A stretch of DNA of 64,000 nt from Escherichia coli (GCF_003018255.1 NZ_CP027440.1); one strand, 5' to 3'; numbered from the stretch's first letter, positions 25,315-44,418 are shown. Program-made: numbers and translations. The notes: a model not told the origin generated them from the letters alone.

Positions 25315-25999
25315 ACAAGTGATGCCGGTTAAGCTGGCGCAGGCGCTGGCGAATCCGTTATTTCCGGCGCTGGATAGCGCCTTACGTTCAGGCCGTCATA
25401 TTGGCCTCGACGAACTGGATAATCATGCATTCCTGATGGATTTTCAGGAATATCTGGAAGAGTTTTACGCGCGTTATAACGTTGAGCTTATTCGTGCACC
25501 GGAAGGGTTCTTCTATCTACGCCCACGTTCCACCACGCTGATCCCTCGTTCCGTCTTGTCGGAACTGGATATGATGGTCGGGAAAATCCTCTGTTATCTC
25601 TATCTCAGCCCGGAACGGCTGGCGAATGAGGGGATTTTCACCCAGCAGGAACTGTACGACGAACTGCTCACCCTGGCCGATGAAGCGAAACTGCTGAAAC
25701 TGGTGAACAACCGTTCAACCGGTTCAGACGTTGACCGGCAGAAGTTGCAGGAGAAAGTACGTTCTTCGCTCAACCGTCTGCGTCGTTTGGGTATGGTGTG
25801 GTTTATGGGCCACGACAGCAGCAAGTTCCGCATTACCGAATCGGTGTTCCGCTTCGGAGCCGATGTGCGTGCTGGCGACGATCCCCGTGAAGCACAGCGT
25901 CGCCTGATTCGTGATGGCGAAGCAATGCCGATTGAAAATCATCTGCAACTCAACGATGAAACCGAAGAGAGTCAGCCAGATAGCGGAGAGGAAGAATAA
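25295..25999 (+). CDS. mukE: chromosome partition protein MukE
   Basis: ORF 25268..25999; start placed at ATG 25295 (MSSTNIEQV...) giving 234 aa; overlaps the mukF 3' end by 20 nt. Confidence 0.9.
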
Positions 26000-28900
26000 T
26001 GATTGAACGCGGTAAATTTCGCTCACTGACGCTGATTAACTGGAACGGCTTTTTTGCCCGAACTTTTGACCTTGACGAGCTGGTCACGACGCTTTCTGGC
26101 GGTAACGGGGCGGGTAAATCCACCACCATGGCAGCGTTCGTTACGGCGCTTATCCCCGACCTGACCCTGCTGCATTTCCGTAACACTACGGAAGCCGGGG
26201 CCACCAGCGGTTCGCGCGATAAAGGTCTGCACGGTAAGCTGAAAGCGGGTGTCTGTTATTCGATGCTCGACACCATTAACTCGCGCCACCAGCGTGTAGT
26301 GGTCGGTGTGCGTCTGCAACAGGTTGCCGGACGCGATCGTAAAGTGGATATCAAACCATTTGCCATTCAGGGCCTGCCGATGTCGGTGCAGCCGACACAA
26401 CTGGTGACCGAAACTCTGAACGAACGCCAGGCGCGCGTGCTGCCGCTTAACGAGCTGAAAGACAAGCTCGAGGCGATGGAAGGCGTGCAGTTTAAACAGT
26501 TCAACTCCATTACCGATTACCACTCGCTGATGTTCGATCTGGGCATCATCGCGCGTCGTCTGCGCTCAGCGTCTGACCGTAGTAAATTCTATCGTCTGAT
26601 CGAAGCCTCGCTGTATGGCGGGATCTCCAGCGCCATTACTCGTTCTCTGCGCGACTACCTGTTGCCGGAAAACAGTGGGGTGCGGAAAGCGTTCCAGGAC
26701 ATGGAAGCGGCGCTGCGTGAAAACCGCATGACGCTGGAAGCGATTCGTGTCACCCAGTCAGACCGTGACCTGTTTAAGCATCTGATCAGCGAAGCCACCA
26801 ACTACGTGGCGGCGGACTACATGCGTCACGCCAACGAGCGCCGTGTTCATCTCGATAAGGCCCTGGAGTTTCGTCGCGAGCTACATACTTCGCGTCAGCA
26901 ACTGGCGGCTGAGCAGTACAAACACGTCGACATGGCGCGAGAGCTGGCTGAGCACAACGGTGCCGAAGGCGATCTGGAAGCGGATTATCAGGCGGCCAGC
27001 GATCACCTGAACCTGGTGCAAACCGCACTGCGTCAGCAGGAGAAGATCGAACGCTACGAAGCGGATCTCGATGAGCTGCAGATCCGTCTGGAAGAGCAAA
27101 ACGAAGTGGTGGCAGAAGCCATCGAACGCCAGGAAGAGAACGAGGCTCGTGCGGAAGCTGCCGAACTGGAAGTGGACGAGCTGAAAAGCCAGCTTGCTGA
27201 CTACCAGCAGGCGCTGGACGTCCAGCAAACGCGCGCGATCCAGTATAACCAGGCGATTGCTGCGCTTAATCGTGCCAAAGAACTGTGCCATCTGCCGGAC
27301 TTAACCGCCGACAGCGCTGCCGAATGGCTGGAAACCTTCCAGGCGAAAGAGCTGGAAGCGACCGAAAAAATGCTCTCTCTTGAGCAGAAAATGAGCATGG
27401 CGCAAACCGCGCACAGCCAGTTTGAGCAGGCTTATCAGCTGGTGGTGGCAATCAACGGCCCGCTGGCGCGTAACGAGGCGTGGGATGTCGCTCGCGAACT
27501 ATTGCGCGAAGGGGTCGATCAGCGTCACCTGGCAGAGCAGGTTCAGCCGTTGCGGATGCGCTTAAGCGAACTGGAACAGCGTCTGCGTGAGCAGCAAGAA
27601 GCTGAGCGTCTGCTGGCAGATTTCTGCAAACGTCAGGGCAAGAATTTTGATATTGATGAACTGGAAGCTCTGCATCAGGAGCTGGAAGCACGCATTGCCT
27701 CTCTTTCCGATAGCGTCTCTAACGCCCGAGAAGAGCGGATGGCACTGCGCCAGGAACAGGAACAGCTGCAGTCTCGCATTCAGAGTTTGATGCAGCGTGC
27801 ACCGGTTTGGCTGGCAGCGCAAAACAGTCTCAACCAGTTGAGCGAACAGTGCGGCGAAGAGTTCACCTCCAGCCAGGACGTCACTGAATATCTGCAACAG
27901 TTGCTGGAGCGTGAGCGCGAAGCCATTGTTGAACGCGATGAAGTAGGCGCGCGCAAAAACGCCGTCGATGAAGAGATCGAACGTTTAAGCCAGCCAGGTG
28001 GTTCTGAAGACCAGCGTTTGAATGCGCTGGCGGAGCGTTTTGGCGGCGTGCTGCTGTCCGAAATTTATGACGACGTGAGTCTGGAAGATGCGCCGTACTT
28101 CTCGGCACTGTATGGCCCGTCACGCCACGCCATCGTGGTGCCAGATCTGTCACAGGTAACCGAACACCTGGAAGGCTTGACCGATTGCCCGGAAGATCTC
28201 TATCTGATCGAAGGGGATCCGCAGTCATTCGATGACAGCGTGTTCAGCGTTGATGAGCTGGAAAAAGCGGTAGTGGTGAAAATCGCCGATCGTCAGTGGC
28301 GTTACTCACGTTTTCCGGAAGTTCCGCTGTTTGGTCGTGCTGCGCGTGAAAGCCGTATTGAAAGCCTCCATGCCGAGCGTGAAGTGCTTTCCGAACGCTT
28401 CGCCACGCTCTCTTTTGATGTACAGAAAACCCAGCGTCTGCATCAGGCGTTCAGCCGCTTTATAGGTAGTCATCTGGCGGTGGCGTTTGAGTCTGATCCG
28501 GAAGCCGAAATCCGTCAACTGAACAGCCGTCGCGTCGAACTGGAGCGGGCGCTGAGTAATCATGAAAATGATAACCAGCAGCAGCGTATTCAATTTGAGC
28601 AGGCGAAAGAGGGCGTTACGGCGCTGAACCGCATTCTGCCGCGTCTCAACCTGTTGGCTGATGACAGCCTGGCGGATCGCGTCGATGAAATCCGCGAACG
28701 TCTGGATGAAGCCCAGGAAGCCGCGCGTTTTGTTCAGCAGTTTGGCAATCAACTGGCGAAACTGGAACCGATCGTTTCGGTATTGCAGAGCGACCCGGAA
28801 CAGTTCGAACAGTTAAAAGAAGATTACGCGTACTCTCAGCAGATGCAGCGCGATGCCCGTCAGCAGGCGTTTGCCCTGACGGAAGTGGTGCAGCGTCGTG

Positions 28901-30459
28901 CGCACTTTAGCTACTCTGACTCGGCAGAAATGCTGAGCGGTAACAGCGATCTCAACGAAAAACTGCGTGAACGTCTGGAACAGGCGGAAGCGGAGCGTAC
29001 CCGCGCGCGTGAAGCGTTGCGCGGACACGCAGCGCAGTTGAGTCAGTACAACCAGGTGCTGGCTTCGCTGAAAAGTTCTTACGACACCAAAAAAGAGCTA
29101 CTCAACGATCTGCAACGTGAATTGCAGGATATCGGCGTGCGTGCTGATAGCGGGGCAGAAGAGCGGGCGCGTATTCGCCGTGACGAGTTGCACGCGCAAC
29201 TGAGCAATAACCGTTCACGCCGCAATCAACTGGAAAAAGCGCTTACCTTCTGCGAAGCGGAGATGGACAACCTGACCCGCAAACTGCGCAAGCTGGAGCG
29301 TGATTACTTTGAGATGCGCGAGCAGGTAGTGACCGCGAAAGCGGGCTGGTGTGCAGTCATGCGCATGGTGAAAGATAACGGCGTTGAACGCCGCTTACAC
29401 CGTCGTGAGCTGGCTTATCTCTCCGCTGATGATTTGCGTTCCATGTCGGATAAGGCGTTAGGTGCGCTGCGTCTGGCGGTGGCGGATAACGAACATCTGC
29501 GCGACGTGCTGCGGATGTCGGAAGATCCAAAACGTCCGGAACGTAAAATTCAGTTCTTCGTGGCGGTTTATCAGCATCTGCGTGAACGTATTCGTCAGGA
29601 TATTATTCGTACCGATGATCCGGTGGAAGCTATCGAACAGATGGAGATCGAACTTAGCCGTCTGACCGAAGAGTTAACCTCCCGTGAACAGAAACTGGCG
29701 ATCAGTTCCCGCAGCGTGGCGAACATTATTCGCAAAACCATTCAGCGCGAACAGAACCGTATCCGTATGCTCAACCAGGGTTTGCAGAACGTATCGTTCG
29801 GTCAGGTAAACAGCGTACGTCTGAATGTGAACGTGCGTGAAACGCACGCCATGCTGCTGGATGTGCTCTCTGAACAGCACGAGCAGCATCAGGATCTGTT
29901 TAACAGCAACCGTCTGACCTTCTCGGAAGCGCTGGCGAAATTGTATCAGCGTCTTAATCCGCAGATTGATATGGGGCAGCGCACGCCGCAGACCATTGGC
30001 GAAGAACTGCTGGATTACCGCAACTATCTGGAAATGGAAGTTGAGGTTAACCGTGGTTCTGATGGCTGGCTGCGCGCAGAATCTGGCGCTCTGTCGACCG
30101 GTGAGGCGATTGGTACCGGTATGTCGATTCTGGTGATGGTGGTACAAAGCTGGGAAGATGAATCTCGCCGCCTGCGCGGTAAAGATATCTCTCCTTGCCG
30201 CCTGCTGTTCCTCGATGAAGCAGCGCGACTGGATGCTCGTTCTATCGCCACGCTGTTTGAATTGTGTGAACGTTTGCAAATGCAGCTCATCATCGCAGCG
30301 CCGGAAAATATCAGTCCGGAAAAAGGCACCACCTATAAACTGGTGCGTAAAGTCTTCCAGAATACCGAACACGTTCACGTCGTCGGCCTGCGAGGATTTG
30401 CGCCGCAACTCCCTGAAACGCTTCCAGGAAGTGACGAAGCGCCTTACCAAGCGAGTTAA
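25999..30459 (+). CDS. mukB: chromosome partition protein MukB (SMC-like condensin)
   Basis: 1486-aa ORF; N-terminal Walker [10 protein letters not shown], long coiled coils, C-terminal signature region; start overlaps the mukE stop (TAATG). Confidence 0.98.
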
Positions 30460-40832: not shown

Positions 40833-43445
40833 ATGACTCAACAGCCACAAGCCAAATACCGTCACGATTATCGTGCGCCGGATTACCAGATTACTGATAT
40901 TGACTTGACCTTTGACCTGGACGCGCAAAAGACGGTCGTTACCGCGGTCAGCCAGGCTGTCCGTCATGGTGCATCAGATGTTCCGCTTCGTCTCAACGGC
41001 GAAGACCTCAAACTGGTTTCTGTTTATATTAATGATGAGCCGTGGACCGCCTGGAAAGAAGAAGAGGGCGCACTGGTCATCAGTAATTTGCCGGAGCGTT
41101 TTACGCTTAAGATCGTTAATGAAATTAGCCCGGCGGCGAATACTGCGCTGGAAGGGCTTTATCAGTCAGGCGATGCGCTTTGCACCCAGTGTGAAGCCGA
41201 AGGTTTCCGCCATATTACGTATTATCTCGACCGCCCGGATGTGCTGGCGCGTTTTACCACCAAAATTATTGCCGATAAAACCAAATATCCCTTCCTGCTT
41301 TCCAACGGTAACCGCGTTGCGCAAGGTGAACTGGAAAATGGACGTCATTGGGTACGGTGGCAGGACCCGTTCCCGAAACCGTGCTACCTGTTTGCGCTGG
41401 TGGCAGGCGACTTTGATGTGCTGCGCGACACTTTCACCACGCGTTCTGGTCGCGAAGTAGCGCTGGAGCTGTATGTCGATCGTGGCAACCTTGATCGTGC
41501 GCCGTGGGCAATGACCTCGCTGAAAAACTCCATGAAATGGGATGAAGAACGCTTCGGCCTGGAGTATGACCTCGACATCTATATGATCGTCGCGGTGGAT
41601 TTCTTCAATATGGGCGCAATGGAGAATAAGGGGCTGAATATCTTTAACTCCAAATATGTGCTGGCCCGCACCGACACCGCCACCGACAAAGATTACCTCG
41701 ATATTGAACGCGTTATCGGCCATGAATATTTCCATAACTGGACCGGCAACCGTGTCACCTGTCGCGACTGGTTCCAGCTCAGTCTGAAAGAAGGTTTAAC
41801 CGTCTTCCGCGATCAGGAATTCAGCTCTGACCTTGGTTCCCGCGCGGTAAACCGTATCAATAATGTGCGCACCATGCGCGGATTGCAGTTTGCAGAAGAC
41901 GCCAGCCCGATGGCGCACCCAATTCGCCCGGATATGGTCATTGAAATGAACAACTTCTACACCCTGACCGTTTACGAGAAGGGCGCGGAAGTGATTCGTA
42001 TGATCCACACTCTGCTTGGCGAAGAAAACTTCCAGAAAGGGATGCAGCTCTATTTCGAGCGTCATGATGGTAGCGCAGCGACCTGTGACGACTTTGTGCA
42101 GGCGATGGAAGATGCGTCGAATGTCGATCTTTCCCATTTCCGCCGTTGGTACAGCCAATCCGGCACGCCGGTTGTGACTGTCAAAGACGACTACAATCCG
42201 GAAACTGAGCAGTACACCCTGACCATCAGCCAGCGCACGCCAGCTACGCCGGATCAGGCAGAAAAACAGCCGCTGCATATTCCGTTTGCCATCGAACTGT
42301 ATGATAACGAAGGCAAAGTGATCCCGTTGCAGAAAGGCGGTCATCCGGTGAATTCGGTGCTGAACGTCACCCAGGCTGAACAGACCTTTGTTTTTGATAA
42401 TGTCTACTTCCAGCCGGTGCCTGCGCTGCTGTGCGAATTCTCTGCGCCAGTGAAACTGGAATATAAGTGGAGCGATCAGCAACTGACCTTCCTGATGCGT
42501 CATGCGCGTAATGATTTCTCCCGTTGGGATGCGGCGCAAAGCCTGCTGGCAACCTACATCAAGCTAAACGTCGCCCGTCATCAGCAAGGGCAGCTGCTGT
42601 CTCTGCCGGTGCATGTGGCTGACGCTTTCCGCGCGGTGCTGCTCGATGAGAAGATTGATCCAGCGCTGGCGGCAGAAATCCTGACGCTGCCTTCTGTCAA
42701 TGAAATGGCTGAACTGTTCGATATCATCGACCCGATTGCTATTGCCGAAGTACGCGAAGCACTCACTCGTACTCTGGCGACTGAACTGGCGGATGAGCTA
42801 CTGGCTATTTACAACGCGAATTACCAGAGCGAGTACCGTGTTGAGCATGAAGATATTGCAAAACGCACTCTGCGTAATGCCTGCCTGCGCTTCCTTGCTT
42901 TTGGTGAAACGCATCTGGCTGACGTGCTGGTGAGCAAGCAATACCATGAAGCAAACAATATGACCGATGCGCTGGCAGCGCTTTCTGCGGCGGTTGCTGC
43001 ACAGCTGCCTTGCCGTGACGCGCTGATGCAGGAGTACGACGACAAGTGGCATCAGGATGGTCTGGTGATGGATAAATGGTTTATCCTGCAAGCCACCAGC
43101 CCGGCGGCGAATGTGCTGGAGACGGTGCGTGGCCTGTTGCAGCATCGCTCATTTACCATGAGCAACCCGAACCGTATTCGTTCGTTGATTGGTGCGTTTG
43201 CGGGCAGCAACCCGGCAGCGTTCCATGCCGAAGATGGCAGCGGTTACCAGTTCCTGGTGGAAATGCTTACCGACCTCAACAGCCGTAACCCGCAGGTGGC
43301 TTCACGCCTGATTGAGCCGCTGATTCGCCTGAAACGTTACGATGCCAAACGTCAGGAGAAAATGCGCGCGGCGCTGGAGCAGTTGAAAGGGCTGGAAAAT
43401 CTCTCTGGCGATCTGTACGAGAAGATAACTAAAGCACTGGCTTGA
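40833..43445 (+). CDS. pepN: aminopeptidase N (M1 family)
   Basis: 870-aa ORF; HEYFHNW...E zinc motif and GAMEN; matches PepN. Confidence 0.97.
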   Translation: MTQQPQAKYRHDYRAPDYQITDIDLTFDLDAQKTVVTAVSQAVRHGASDVPLRLNGEDLKLVSVYINDEPWTAWKEEEGALVISNLPERFTLKIVNEISPAANTALEGLYQSGDALCTQCEAEGFRHITYYLDRPDVLARFTTKIIADKTKYPFLLSNGNRVAQGELENGRHWVRWQDPFPKPCYLFALVAGDFDVLRDTFTTRSGREVALELYVDRGNLDRAPWAMTSLKNSMKWDEERFGLEYDLDIYMIVAVDFFNMGAMENKGLNIFNSKYVLARTDTATDKDYLDIERVIGHEYFHNWTGNRVTCRDWFQLSLKEGLTVFRDQEFSSDLGSRAVNRINNVRTMRGLQFAEDASPMAHPIRPDMVIEMNNFYTLTVYEKGAEVIRMIHTLLGEENFQKGMQLYFERHDGSAATCDDFVQAMEDASNVDLSHFRRWYSQSGTPVVTVKDDYNPETEQYTLTISQRTPATPDQAEKQPLHIPFAIELYDNEGKVIPLQKGGHPVNSVLNVTQAEQTFVFDNVYFQPVPALLCEFSAPVKLEYKWSDQQLTFLMRHARNDFSRWDAAQSLLATYIKLNVARHQQGQLLSLPVHVADAFRAVLLDEKIDPALAAEILTLPSVNEMAELFDIIDPIAIAEVREALTRTLATELADELLAIYNANYQSEYRVEHEDIAKRTLRNACLRFLAFGETHLADVLVSKQYHEANNMTDALAALSAAVAAQLPCRDALMQEYDDKWHQDGLVMDKWFILQATSPAANVLETVRGLLQHRSFTMSNPNRIRSLIGAFAGSNPAAFHAEDGSGYQFLVEMLTDLNSRNPQVASRLIEPLIRLKRYDAKRQEKMRAALEQLKGLENLSGDLYEKITKALA

Positions 43446-43462
43446 TACTTTTGAGCCAAAAT

Positions 43463-43609
43463 GCCGGATGCGACGCTTGACGCGTCTTATCAGGCCTACA
43501 AGTCCGTTGAAAATGCTGGTTTTGTAGGCTGGATAAGGCGTTCACGCCGCATCCGGCAGCCGTGCCCAAATGCCTGATGCGACGCTTGACGCGTCTTATC
43601 AGGCCTACA
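43463..43609. repeat. REP elements forming a BIME (three copies in alternating orientation)
   Basis: gccggatgcgacgcttgacgcgtcttatcaggcctaca (43463-43500), inverted copy 43524-43560, near-identical copy 43571-43609; a partial fourth copy follows at 43631-43648; lies between convergent pepN and ssuB. Confidence 0.85.
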
Positions 43610-43650
43610 ATCCGTTGAAACTGCTGGTTTTGTGTGCCACATCCGGCATA

Positions 43651-44418
43651 TTAACCATGACGCCGAATCGGTTGTTCAGAGTGCCCACGCTGCATCACCC
43701 GTTGCAAAACTTCCGCTTCCAGCTCCGCTAATCGCACCGACCCTAACCGGCGCGGACGGGGGATATCCACCGTCAAATCCAGACCAATTTTTCCCTCTTC
43801 AATTAACAATACCCGGTCAGCCATTGCTACCGCTTCGCTCACATCATGCGTCACCAACAGTACGGTAAAGCCGTGCTCCTGCCAAAGTGACACAATCAAA
43901 TCCTGCATCTCGAGCCGAGTCAGGGCGTCCAGCGCCCCGAGCGGTTCATCAAGCAATAATAAACCCGGTCGATGAATTAACGCTCTTGCCAGCGCCACAC
44001 GCTGTTTCTGCCCGCCAGAAAGTGCGGCAGGCCATTCCCCTGCGCGGTTCTCCAGTCCTACTGCAGCCAACGCCCGACGCGCGGCATCGCGCCACTGGCC
44101 TTTAAGGCCTAACCCAACGTTATCAATCACCGATTTCCACGGTAGCAGACGCGCATCCTGAAACATCATTCGCGTGTCTTCCTGAATCTCAGCCAGCGGT
44201 GTGGTGCCCGCTAACACGTCGCCTGCGGTTGGCGTTTCCAGACCTGCCAGCAGGCGCAGCAGGGTACTTTTGCCACCACCGCTGCGGCCCACCACCGCCA
44301 CAAACTGACCTGCCGGAATATGTAAATCCAGTTGGTTCAGGACGATATTTTCCGCGTATTGTTTGCTTACTGCATTGAGCAACAATGGTGTGCCCTGGTT
44401 CAGACGAGCAGTATTCAT
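43651..44418 (-). CDS. ssuB: aliphatic sulfonate ABC transporter ATP-binding protein
   Basis: 255-aa ORF; Walker [18 protein letters not shown]; matches SsuB. Confidence 0.96.

What the first reader, a model, noticed from the sequence alone, without database searches (positions are those of the whole stretch)
43463..43609. BIME-type REP cluster between convergent pepN and ssuB
Three REP copies in alternating orientation (two near-identical, one inverted) form a BIME-like array where a terminator would be expected. These elements are known mRNA stabilisers and binding sites for gyrase and IHF, and as targets for certain IS elements.
Basis: partly seen in the sequence, partly recalled or inferred. 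Interest (0 to 1): 0.15.

Follow-up and report, generated by a model that had tools for sequence, protein, structure and literature searches.

The report
Ordinary REP/BIME cluster after pepN
This is a standard E. coli REP/BIME repeat cluster: three hairpin repeats and a broken fourth lie between the ends of pepN and ssuB, where K-12-like strains carry a plain terminator hairpin instead, so the finding is real but ordinary.

Summary
Window 43463-43608 holds three full REP palindromic units: Z2(+), Y(-) and Z2(+). They match the E. coli consensus, while shuffled sequence gave no matches. The array is two tandem units of about 108 nt.

It is a BIME built from Y and Z2 units, like REP325/naRNA4, which explains an above-threshold Rfam naRNA4 hit. 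It is not the IHF-binding BIME-1 type. The Z units are not Z1, the tail-to-tail linker occurs only at this locus, and an IHF site is not supported.

No intrinsic terminator is predicted in the window. K-12 and O157 carry a 42-nt spacer with a terminator-like hairpin at the same spot.

Of 5426 complete E. coli genomes:
- about 58% have the hairpin haplotype;
- about 38% have this BIME intact;
- about 3.6% have IS1397 inserted in the loop of REP1, in both orientations.

Other Escherichia species share the BIME, so it is ancestral in the genus.

It most likely acts as a two-way 3'-end hairpin module that protects mRNA from decay and attenuates read-through. This role is inferred, not shown. The element is of a known kind and of low interest.

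The parts
43443..43445 (+). pepN stop codon (TGA)
   Evidence: ORF 40833-43445. Annotated as pepN in a strain 100% identical over the 341-base query.
43448..43674 (.). Haplotype-specific segment (227 nt). It replaces 64 nt of K-12 and includes the last 8 codons of ssuB.
   Evidence: Homology to K-12 MG1655 stops at 43447 and resumes at 43675, with flanks 97.5% and 96.6% identical. Six of the seven SsuB differences lie in the last 10 residues.
43452..43462 (.). Left border motif GAGCCAAAAT. It resembles the head-to-head linker and is the start of tandem unit 1.
   Evidence: Direct repeat D1 begins at 43455. The unit-to-unit alignment confirms it.
43463..43499 (+). REP1, a Z2-type palindromic unit of 37 nt with a CTAC tail. 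G at 43466 creates a stem mismatch; most strains have T there.
   Evidence: Another allele (L003) has T at this position.
43478..43481 (.). TGAC in the loop of REP1. This is the IS1397 insertion site and target duplication seen in other strains.
   Evidence: Junction sequences were read directly. 150 genomes carry the IS in one orientation and 46 in the other.
43500..43523 (.). Tail-to-tail linker, copy 1 (24 nt, AAGTCCGTTGAAAATGCTGGTTTT).
   Evidence: The linker is specific to this locus: it occurs in 2249 genomes, with a median of two places per genome, consistent with the two tandem copies at this locus. It is not the dispersed L linker.
43524..43557 (-). REP2, a Y-type palindromic unit of 34 nt in inverted orientation. 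GTAG is at its 5' end on the + strand.
43558..43571 (.). Head-to-head linker AGCCGTGCCCAAAT, similar to the head-to-head linker of REP325.
43572..43608 (+). REP3, a Z2-type palindromic unit of 37 nt. It has the most stable hairpin: -21.3 kcal/mol on the + strand and -21.8 on the - strand.
43527..43605 (+). Rfam naRNA4 (RF02564) match, covering REP2, the head-to-head linker and REP3.
   Evidence: 82.2 bits against a gathering score of 59.5. REP2 plus the head-to-head linker plus REP3 (43524-43608) is identical at 78 of 85 positions to a Y-linker-Z2 module of K-12 REP325.
43609..43631 (.). Tail-to-tail linker, copy 2 (23 nt). It holds the only IHF-like site, TTTCAACGGATTG, at 43608-43620 on the - strand.
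   Evidence: The IHF-like match has one mismatch, and 13% of shuffles reach the same count.
43632..43648 (-). Truncated Y unit (GTGTGCCACATCCGGCA). Only the 3' arm is left. It ends 2 nt before the ssuB stop.
   Evidence: E. albertii keeps a full-length Y at this position.
43651..43653 (-). ssuB stop codon (TAA on the - strand)
   Evidence: ORF 43651-44418. Annotated as ssuB.

Best explanation
The element is a classical E. coli BIME (a cluster of REP palindromic units). It consists of two tandem units of about 108 nt, each ordered as Z2 unit, 23-24-nt tail-to-tail linker, Y unit, with a 14-nt head-to-head linker between the two units. The Y of the second unit has lost its 5' arm and loop. The array fills the 205-nt spacer between the 3' ends of the convergent pepN gene and the ssuEADCB operon.

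Shown here:
- its identity, anatomy and repeat-family membership;
- the absence of a canonical intrinsic terminator;
- its replacement in about 58% of E. coli by a short terminator-like hairpin haplotype;
- its presence in other Escherichia species;
- its use as an IS1397 target.

Inferred, from the location and from published work on other REPs: both transcripts read into the array. The stable REP hairpins then block 3'-to-5' exonucleases and attenuate read-through, partly with the help of Rho. The array would therefore serve as a two-way 3'-end module in place of the hairpin terminator. At the DNA level it is a passive substrate for the REP-associated transposase (RAYT) and for REP-specific IS elements.

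My confidence in the identity is about 0.98. My confidence in the 3'-end role at this locus is about 0.55.
For: Identity:
- Three sites match the REP pattern, against none in 30 shuffles.
- The units are near-identical to the Y and Z2 units of K-12 REP325 and of the yjjV-yjjW spacer.
- They have GTAG/CTAC feet and a mismatch inside the stem.
- The family is dispersed in 5425 of 5426 genomes.
- Rfam naRNA4 scores 82.2 bits, above the gathering score of 59.5.

Role at the 3' ends:
- The array is extragenic and lies between two convergent stop codons.
- Both strands fold very stably, with z-scores of -8.1 and -7.2.
- No terminator-like site is found in the window. The allelic 42-nt spacer of K-12 and EDL933 holds a 12-14-bp GC-rich hairpin with T-rich tails and gives terminator-like hits on both strands.
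- The pepN-ssuB spacer holds REP-like palindromes in Citrobacter, Lelliottia, Leclercia, Kosakonia and other genera.
- The same two-unit array, with the same truncated Y, is present in E. whittamii and in Escherichia sp. E1V33.

Literature:
- REP325 acts as a partly Rho-dependent terminator and as an mRNA stabiliser. About 30% of spacers between convergent genes in E. coli hold a REP, and those gene pairs show elevated expression (bioRxiv 10.64898/2026.03.23.713779).
- IS1397 and RAYT act on REPs (PMC1525189, PMC3333891).
Against: - No expression, 3'-end or half-life data exist for this locus. K-12, the strain used in the experimental work, lacks the element.
- The element is dispensable: 58% of complete genomes lack it.
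- About 196 genomes tolerate an IS1397 inside REP1, and some have lost the 5' arm of REP1 through a 12-nt deletion.
- The last unit is a broken remnant, which fits a decaying selfish repeat as well as it fits a functional module.
Confidence: 0.75

Rival explanations
1. The array is a selfish or neutral relic. It was put in place and duplicated by RAYT-type activity or by replication slippage, and it persists without any role for pepN or ssu. Any effect on the transcripts is incidental.
For: - 58% of complete E. coli genomes lack it.
- It tolerates IS1397 insertion, a 12-nt arm deletion and an extra unit.
- The ssuB-proximal Y unit is truncated.
- The number of units runs from 1 to 3 across Escherichia.
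- All three complete units keep the features RAYT needs: GTAG and a stem mismatch.
Against: - The same two-unit architecture is kept in several Escherichia species.
- REP-like palindromes occupy this spacer in many genera.
- The haplotype that lacks the array carries a dedicated terminator-like hairpin rather than nothing.
- The E. albertii copy, where the ssu operon is deleted, has decayed: its single unit folds at -37.7 kcal/mol against -58.2 for the window's unit. This is a single case.
Confidence: 0.3
2. The array encodes a naRNA4-like nucleoid-associated non-coding RNA that binds HU and bridges REP cruciforms to condense the chromosome.
For: - The Rfam RF02564 match at 43527-43605 (+) scores 82.2 bits, above the gathering score of 59.5.
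- It is 92% identical to a Y-linker-Z2 module of REP325.
Against: - The Rfam model is in effect a generic Y-Z2 REP pair, so any such pair scores. The opposite strand also scores 52 bits.
- The follow-up study from the same laboratories reports that REP325 and naRNA4 do not measurably compact the nucleoid and that REP-REP contacts are not seen (bioRxiv 10.64898/2026.03.23.713779).
- No promoter-like site is predicted in the spacer.
Confidence: 0.04
3. The array is a BIME-1 (RIP/RIB) element whose linker recruits IHF.
For: - The tail-to-tail linker (23-24 nt) is longer than the 16-17 nt linkers of REP325 and yjjV-yjjW.
- Its right half loosely resembles the right half of the canonical L linker (TTGAA..TGC..G.TTTTGTAGG).
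- One site, TTTCAACGGATTG, matches WATCAANNNNTTR with one mismatch.
Against: - The Z units are the long Z2 type, not the short Z1 type of BIME-1 (definition in PMC3333891 and PMC1187871).
- The linker is found only at this locus. The true L linker occurs at 40 or more places per genome.
- 13% of shuffles give as many IHF-like matches, copy 1 of the linker has the wrong spacing, and most orthologous alleles have no match.
Confidence: 0.04
4. The REP hairpins act as canonical Rho-independent terminators for pepN and ssuB.
For: The hairpins are GC-rich and stable, and they sit directly after both stop codons.
Against: No hairpin is followed by a T-run, and the terminator scan finds nothing on either strand. 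The literature notes that most REPs lack a poly-U tract.
Confidence: 0.03

Closest known systems
REP325 (yjdM-yjdN spacer of K-12), a BIME-2 of six Y/Z2 units and the source of naRNA4 (Rfam RF02564)
   Same: - Same palindromic unit types (Y and Z2), in alternating orientation.
- Similar head-to-head linker.
- REP2-linker-REP3 is identical at 78 of 85 positions to one REP325 module, and the Rfam hit is above threshold.
- Both lie in a 3'-UTR position.
   Different: - Here there are 2 units, the second one broken, rather than 6.
- The tail-to-tail linker is 23-24 nt and specific to this locus, not the 17-nt linker of REP325.
- This array lies between convergent genes, not inside an operon.
- It is absent from K-12.
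The Y/Z2 BIME in the yjjV-yjjW spacer of K-12
   Same: It is the best K-12 match to the array, at 87% identity over REP1 to REP3 (H26). It also lies between convergent genes, has 37-nt Z2 units alternating with Y units, and ends in a truncated unit.
   Different: It has four tandem units and a 16-nt tail-to-tail linker of unrelated sequence.
BIME-1 / RIP elements, for example the mog-satP spacer (Z1, L linker with IHF site, Y)
   Same: [quoted passage not shown] Presence/absence between strains is typical of BIME-1 (PMC1187871).
   Different: The canonical element has the 29-nt Z1 unit and a dispersed 35-nt L linker with an IHF-like core. Here the Z units are Z2, the linker is unique to the locus, an IHF site is not supported, and the unit is duplicated.
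REPINs and RAYT-associated REP doublets of Pseudomonas and other gamma-proteobacteria
   Same: Both are inverted REP doublets that fold into one long hairpin. Here REP1 pairs with REP2. Both are presumed to be non-autonomous elements mobilised by a RAYT (PMC3116915 and PMC2817692).
   Different: The REP sequence family differs. No evidence of recent mobility was found at this locus, and the array is old within Escherichia.

Membership tests
E. coli REP / palindromic unit (PU) | An imperfect palindrome of 30-40 nt that can form a hairpin | tested here: met
   The units are 34-37 nt long. Each folds at -15 to -22 kcal/mol on either strand.
E. coli REP / palindromic unit (PU) | Conserved GTAG (CTAC on the other strand) at the foot of the hairpin | tested here: met
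   All three complete units have it. The truncated unit has GTGT instead.
E. coli REP / palindromic unit (PU) | Conserved mismatch or bulge within the stem, which RAYT needs for binding (PMC3333891) | tested here: met
   The predicted hairpins show a 1x1 or 2x2 internal loop at the expected place.
E. coli REP / palindromic unit (PU) | Sequence match to the Y, Z1 or Z2 consensus | tested here: met
   REP2 matches Y at 33 of 34 positions. REP3 matches the Z2 of REP325 over its full length, at 97.3% identity over 37 aligned columns, with one extra loop base.
E. coli REP / palindromic unit (PU) | Extragenic location | tested here: met
   The units lie between the pepN stop (43445) and the ssuB stop (43651).
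E. coli REP / palindromic unit (PU) | High copy number, dispersed over the genome | tested here: met
   172,643 matching places in 5425 of 5426 genomes, with a median of 34 per genome. This is the only cluster in the 64-kb window.
BIME (general) | Two or more palindromic units in alternating orientation, separated by linker motifs | tested here: met
   The order is Z2(+), linker, Y(-), linker, Z2(+), linker, truncated Y(-).
BIME-1 (RIP/RIB) | One Y unit and one Z1 unit | tested here: not met
   The Z units are 37 nt and of Z2 type. The Z1 of the canonical mog-satP BIME-1 is 29 nt: GCCTGATGCGCTACGCTTATCAGGCCTAC.
BIME-1 (RIP/RIB) | Conserved long L linker carrying an IHF site | tested here: not met
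   The linker occurs only at this locus, whereas L is dispersed. The single IHF-like match is reached by 13% of shuffles and is not conserved in orthologous alleles.
BIME-2 | Y and Z2 units in tandem repeated units | tested here: met
   Two units in the window and three in strain SCPM-O-B-8794.
BIME-2 | Standard short tail-to-tail linker (S) and s/l/r head-to-head linkers | tested here: inconclusive
   The head-to-head linker resembles that of REP325. The tail-to-tail linker does not: it is 24 nt against 17 nt, of unrelated sequence, and specific to this locus. The original motif consensus papers were not available. By the published definition the element would be filed as an atypical BIME.
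BIME-2 | Strong DNA gyrase binding and cleavage | not testable with these tools
   This needs norfloxacin or oxolinic-acid cleavage mapping, or ChIP.
Rfam RF02564 naRNA4 | Covariance-model score at or above the gathering threshold | tested here: met
   82.2 bits against 59.5 at 43527-43605 on the + strand.
Rfam RF02564 naRNA4 | A discrete transcript that binds HU and acts on the nucleoid | not testable with these tools
   There are no expression data. The proposed nucleoid role is itself disputed.
Rho-independent terminator | A GC-rich hairpin followed directly by a T-run | tested here: not met
   No sites were found on either strand of 43300-43800. The allelic K-12 spacer gives hits.
IS1397 target (PU loop) | IS1397 inserted in the loop of a palindromic unit, with a short target duplication | tested here: met
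   In other strains the IS sits in the TTGAC loop of REP1, flanked by TGAC on both sides. 150 genomes have one orientation and 46 the other.

The most novel reading that the evidence does not exclude
The two haplotypes at the pepN-ssuB junction are the Y/Z2 BIME with the SsuB tail ...[10 protein letters not shown] and the 42-nt terminator hairpin with the tail ...ESETRLRKQG. They might be an old polymorphism that is maintained because the two versions have different effects. Under this reading they would be alternative 3'-end modules, swapped as a cassette by recombination, that set different pepN and ssu mRNA levels or different degrees of convergent-transcription interference. That would make the pair a ready-made natural experiment on what REPs do. 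The evidence shows the dimorphism, its sharp borders and its age. It says nothing about selection or expression.
Probability: 0.12. Interest if true: 0.35.

Novelty: already known. Interest (0 to 1): 0.1.

Why it matters
It matters little for discovery, because REP/BIME elements have been described since the 1980s. The result has four practical uses.

1. The locus gives a clean allelic pair, BIME against intrinsic-terminator hairpin, each present in thousands of sequenced strains with identical flanks. This could be used to test the terminator and stabiliser roles of REPs. K-12 cannot serve here because it lacks this copy.
2. The loop of REP1 is a recurrent natural IS1397 insertion site, occupied in about 196 of 5426 genomes and in both orientations.
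3. The above-threshold Rfam naRNA4 hit shows that this family model reports generic Y-Z2 REP pairs. Such hits should not be annotated as a specific sRNA gene.
4. The short ORFs that run through the array (for example 43429-43569 and 43496-43642 on the - strand) are by-products of the repeat, not genes.

Tried and rejected
- My first REP pattern used a fixed 4-nt loop and found nothing. The loop length was wrong for both unit types. A pattern with a variable gap found the three units.
- Tandem Repeats Finder reported no array, because there are fewer than two full copies. The duplication comes from the repeat finder and from a pairwise alignment.
- The RefSeq K-12 record in the collection shows no repeat_region features in the three stretches inspected. 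The unit types were therefore assigned by comparison with REP325, whose Y and Z2 units are named in PMC4550694, and with a canonical BIME-1 fetched from the mog-satP spacer.
- The original BIME, RIB and IS1397 papers (PMC333889, PMC413762, PMC94167) are not held. A search for the paper on REPs close to stop codons also found nothing.
- The IHF reading was rejected, as was the BIME-1 reading.
- I looked for a donor of the K-12-type segment among 80 enterobacterial pepN loci. None matches the hairpin or the ssuB tail.
- Two 13-nt matches to the Y unit at about 29212 and 29447 lie inside the 1486-aa ORF 25999-30459 and are chance matches.

Full report
**What is in the sequence.** The window is E. 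coli. A 341-base query around the finding (window 43380-43720) is 100% identical to strain 104 (NZ_CP029164), where the flanking genes are annotated as pepN and ssuB. In the window, pepN runs from 40833 to 43445 on the + strand and ssuB from 43651 to 44418 on the - strand, so the two genes converge on a 205-nt spacer.

The spacer has this anatomy:
- a 17-nt left flank;
- REP1 at 43463-43499 (+);
- a 24-nt tail-to-tail linker;
- REP2 at 43524-43557 (inverted);
- a 14-nt head-to-head linker;
- REP3 at 43572-43608 (+);
- a second copy of the tail-to-tail linker (23 nt, 43609-43631);
- a 17-nt remnant at 43632-43648 (GTGTGCCACATCCGGCA). This is the 3' arm of a further inverted unit, and it ends 2 nt before the ssuB stop.

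REP1 and REP3 differ at one base. The whole array is a tandem duplication of a unit of about 108 nt. The second unit lacks 18 nt of its Y unit, and the two units are identical at 81 of 107 aligned columns.

**More than chance.** A REP pattern with limited mismatches found exactly these three sites in 64 kb and none in 30 dinucleotide-preserving shuffles. Single units fold at -15 to -22 kcal/mol on either strand. The spacer as a whole folds at -96.3 kcal/mol (z = -8.1) on the + strand and -95.0 kcal/mol (z = -7.2) on the - strand. In the predicted structure REP1 pairs with REP2 in one long hairpin and REP3 folds on its own. The repeat family matches 172,643 places in 5425 of 5426 complete E. 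coli genomes. There is no other REP in this window. Two 13-nt matches near 29.2-29.4 kb lie inside the 1486-aa ORF 25999-30459 and are chance matches.

**Which kind of REP and BIME.** The literature defines three unit types (Y, Z1, Z2). It defines BIME-1 as Y plus Z1 with a long L linker that often carries an IHF site, BIME-2 as tandem Y/Z2 units, and everything else as atypical BIMEs (PMC3333891; PMC1187871).

- K-12 REP325 has units named Y and Z2 in PMC4550694. Its Z2 is GCCTGATGCGACGCTTGCGCGTCTTATCAGGCCTAC and its Y is GCCGGATGCGGCGTAAACGCCTTATCCGGCCTAC.
- The window's REP1 and REP3 are this Z2 with one extra loop base. REP2 is a Y unit.
- A canonical BIME-1 fetched from the mog-satP spacer has the short 29-nt Z1 and a 35-nt L linker. 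That L linker is dispersed at 40 or more places per genome.
- The window's tail-to-tail linker occurs only at this locus. It is found in 2249 genomes, with a median of two places per genome, consistent with the two tandem copies at this locus.
- The head-to-head linker AGCCGTGCCCAAAT resembles that of REP325 (AACGGTGCCGACT).
- REP2 plus the linker plus REP3 is identical at 78 of 85 positions to one REP325 module.

That similarity explains the one database hit. Rfam naRNA4 (RF02564) matches 43527-43605 on the + strand with 82.2 bits, above the gathering score of 59.5. The opposite strand scores 52 bits.

The element is therefore a Y/Z2 BIME. It is BIME-2-like in its units and formally atypical because of its linker. 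It is not a BIME-1.

The IHF consensus WATCAANNNNTTR is matched once, with one mismatch, in linker copy 2. Thirteen percent of shuffles do as well, linker copy 1 has the wrong spacing, and most orthologous alleles have no match. IHF binding is not supported.

**Terminator context and the alternative haplotype.** No terminator-like or promoter-like site is found in 43300-43800. K-12 MG1655 has no REP here. Its pepN-ssuB spacer is 42 nt and consists of a perfect 12-bp GC-rich hairpin of -26 kcal/mol.

Homology between the window and K-12 stops at 43447, two bases after the pepN stop. It resumes at 43675, inside ssuB. The flanks are 97.5% and 96.6% identical. A 227-nt segment in the window thus replaces 64 nt in K-12, including the last 8 codons of ssuB. 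SsuB is identical at 248 of 255 residues, and six of the seven differences fall in the last ten residues ([10 protein letters not shown] against ESETRLRKQG).

The K-12-type hairpin is invariant in five diverse strains. In EDL933 it extends to 14 bp with T-rich tails on both sides. The terminator scan gives hits on both strands in K-12, although the + strand hit there is a separate, weak 5-bp hairpin. In EDL933 the scan did not report the main hairpin itself: its + strand hit is the same weak 5-bp hairpin, and its - strand hit lies inside pepN. The two haplotypes look like two different solutions for ending two convergent transcripts.

**Census.** Counts among 5426 complete genomes:

| State | Genomes |
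|---|---|
| K-12-type hairpin haplotype | 3166 (58%) |
| BIME haplotype, essentially intact | 2059 (38%) |
| IS1397 junction, one orientation | 150 |
| IS1397 junction, other orientation | 46 |

The locus-specific linker is present in 2249 genomes. Together these states account for about 5421 genomes.

The IS sits in the TTGAC loop of REP1 and is flanked by a TGAC duplication. The two orientations imply at least two independent insertions. IS1397 is the IS3-family element known to insert specifically into REPs (PMC1525189; PMC3333891).

Other variants seen are a 12-nt deletion of the 5' arm of REP1 in two sampled strains and an extra inverted unit in one strain.

**Age.** A scan of one genome per species with the PepN C-terminus returned 80 enterobacterial loci.
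- Escherichia sp. E1V33, E. whittamii and the strain labelled E. coli E69 have the same two-unit array with the same truncated Y and the same SsuB tail.
- Strain SCPM-O-B-8794 has three units.
- E. albertii has lost the ssu operon except for about 105 nt of the ssuB 3' end. It keeps a single, decayed unit whose Y is full-length, and that unit folds at -37.7 kcal/mol against -58.2 for the window's unit.

I infer that the BIME haplotype is ancestral in Escherichia, and that the duplication and the truncation of the ssuB-proximal Y came after the split from E. albertii.

Citrobacter, Lelliottia, Leclercia, Kosakonia, Yokenella and Pluralibacter also carry REP-like palindromes of their own types in this spacer. 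The ...EQPIRRHG tail is shared with several Citrobacter species. The K-12-type tail loosely resembles that of C. youngae (ENEVQLRKQG), but no donor of the K-12 segment was found among the 80 loci.

**How it most likely works.** The shown facts are listed above. The function is inferred from position and from work on other REPs. In that work, REPs block 3'-to-5' exonucleases, some act as partial Rho-dependent terminators, and most lack a poly-U tract. REP325 both attenuates read-through and stabilises the upstream mRNA. About 30% of spacers between convergent genes in E. coli contain a REP, and those gene pairs show higher expression (bioRxiv 10.64898/2026.03.23.713779).

On that basis I propose that the pepN and ssuEADCB transcripts both read into the array and end in REP hairpins. 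The hairpins would protect the transcripts and limit convergent read-through, doing the job that the hairpin terminator does in K-12-type strains. I give this about 0.55.

The main rival, at about 0.3, is that the array is a tolerated selfish relic. It is dispensable, it can be broken, and it varies in copy number.

The nucleoid-RNA reading (naRNA4) is weak. The Rfam model is a generic Y-Z2 pair, and the nucleoid role has been contested by a follow-up study. The BIME-1/IHF reading and the intrinsic-terminator reading failed their tests.

From memory, and not checked here: Liang, Rudd and Deutscher (Mol Cell 2015) reported that REPs within about 15 nt of a stop codon reduce translation of the upstream gene. 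REP1 starts 17 nt after the pepN stop in this window, but only 9 nt after it in the other Escherichia species.

**Verdict.** The element belongs to a long-known family. The presence/absence polymorphism, the variable unit number and the IS1397 targeting are all behaviours already described for BIMEs. Novelty: already known. Interest: low (0.1). The only mildly useful extra is that the locus offers a natural BIME-versus-terminator allelic pair for testing what REPs do.

Noticed in passing
window 43651-43674 (ssuB 3' end); L001 4278-4301: The last 8 codons of ssuB belong to the haplotype-specific segment. The SsuB tail is [10 protein letters not shown] here and ESETRLRKQG in K-12. Both tail types also occur among Citrobacter species (for example C. 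werkmanii [10 protein letters not shown] and C. youngae ENEVQLRKQG). No donor of the K-12 version was found among 80 enterobacterial loci.
   Followed up: partly
L015 3401-3640 (Escherichia albertii NBRC 107761): The ssu operon is deleted except for about 105 nt of the ssuB 3' end. A single decayed Z2-linker-Y unit remains after pepN, and what appears to be pyrD (not confirmed) follows.
   Followed up: partly
L007 about 480-560 (E. coli E700025): This allele has IS1397 in REP1 in the opposite orientation. It also has an extra inverted REP-like unit (CCTGATAAGGCGTTTACGCGCATCCGGCA) between REP2 and REP3.
   Followed up: no
L004 and L005 (E. coli HB37 and SCU-204), equivalent to window 43463-43474: A 12-nt deletion removes the 5' arm of REP1 (GCCGGATGCGAC) and leaves a half-unit. 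Four of the fifteen full-coverage rows listed have the 329-330-nt length, and the 12-nt deletion was confirmed in the two I aligned (L004, L005).
   Followed up: no
L012 3401-3707 (strain SCPM-O-B-8794, a separate species representative in the genome collection although labelled E. coli): Three tandem BIME units (5 full REPs plus the remnant) sit at the same locus. The first Z2 is visibly degenerate.
   Followed up: no
window 43429-43569 (-), 43496-43642 (-), 43570-43731 (+): Short ORFs of 46-53 aa run through the REP array. They are by-products of the repeat sequence and should not be called as genes.
   Followed up: no
L095 (E. coli TUM13066, NZ_CP128919): In this genome pepN is annotated as a pseudogene, described as incomplete and missing its N-terminus.
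   Followed up: no
L009 5262-5680 (K-12 yjjV-yjjW spacer): The closest K-12 relative of the array is a four-unit Y/Z2 BIME between convergent genes. It also ends in a truncated unit (GTAGGCCGTATCCGGCATG) next to the downstream gene, the same kind of broken terminal unit as here.
   Followed up: no
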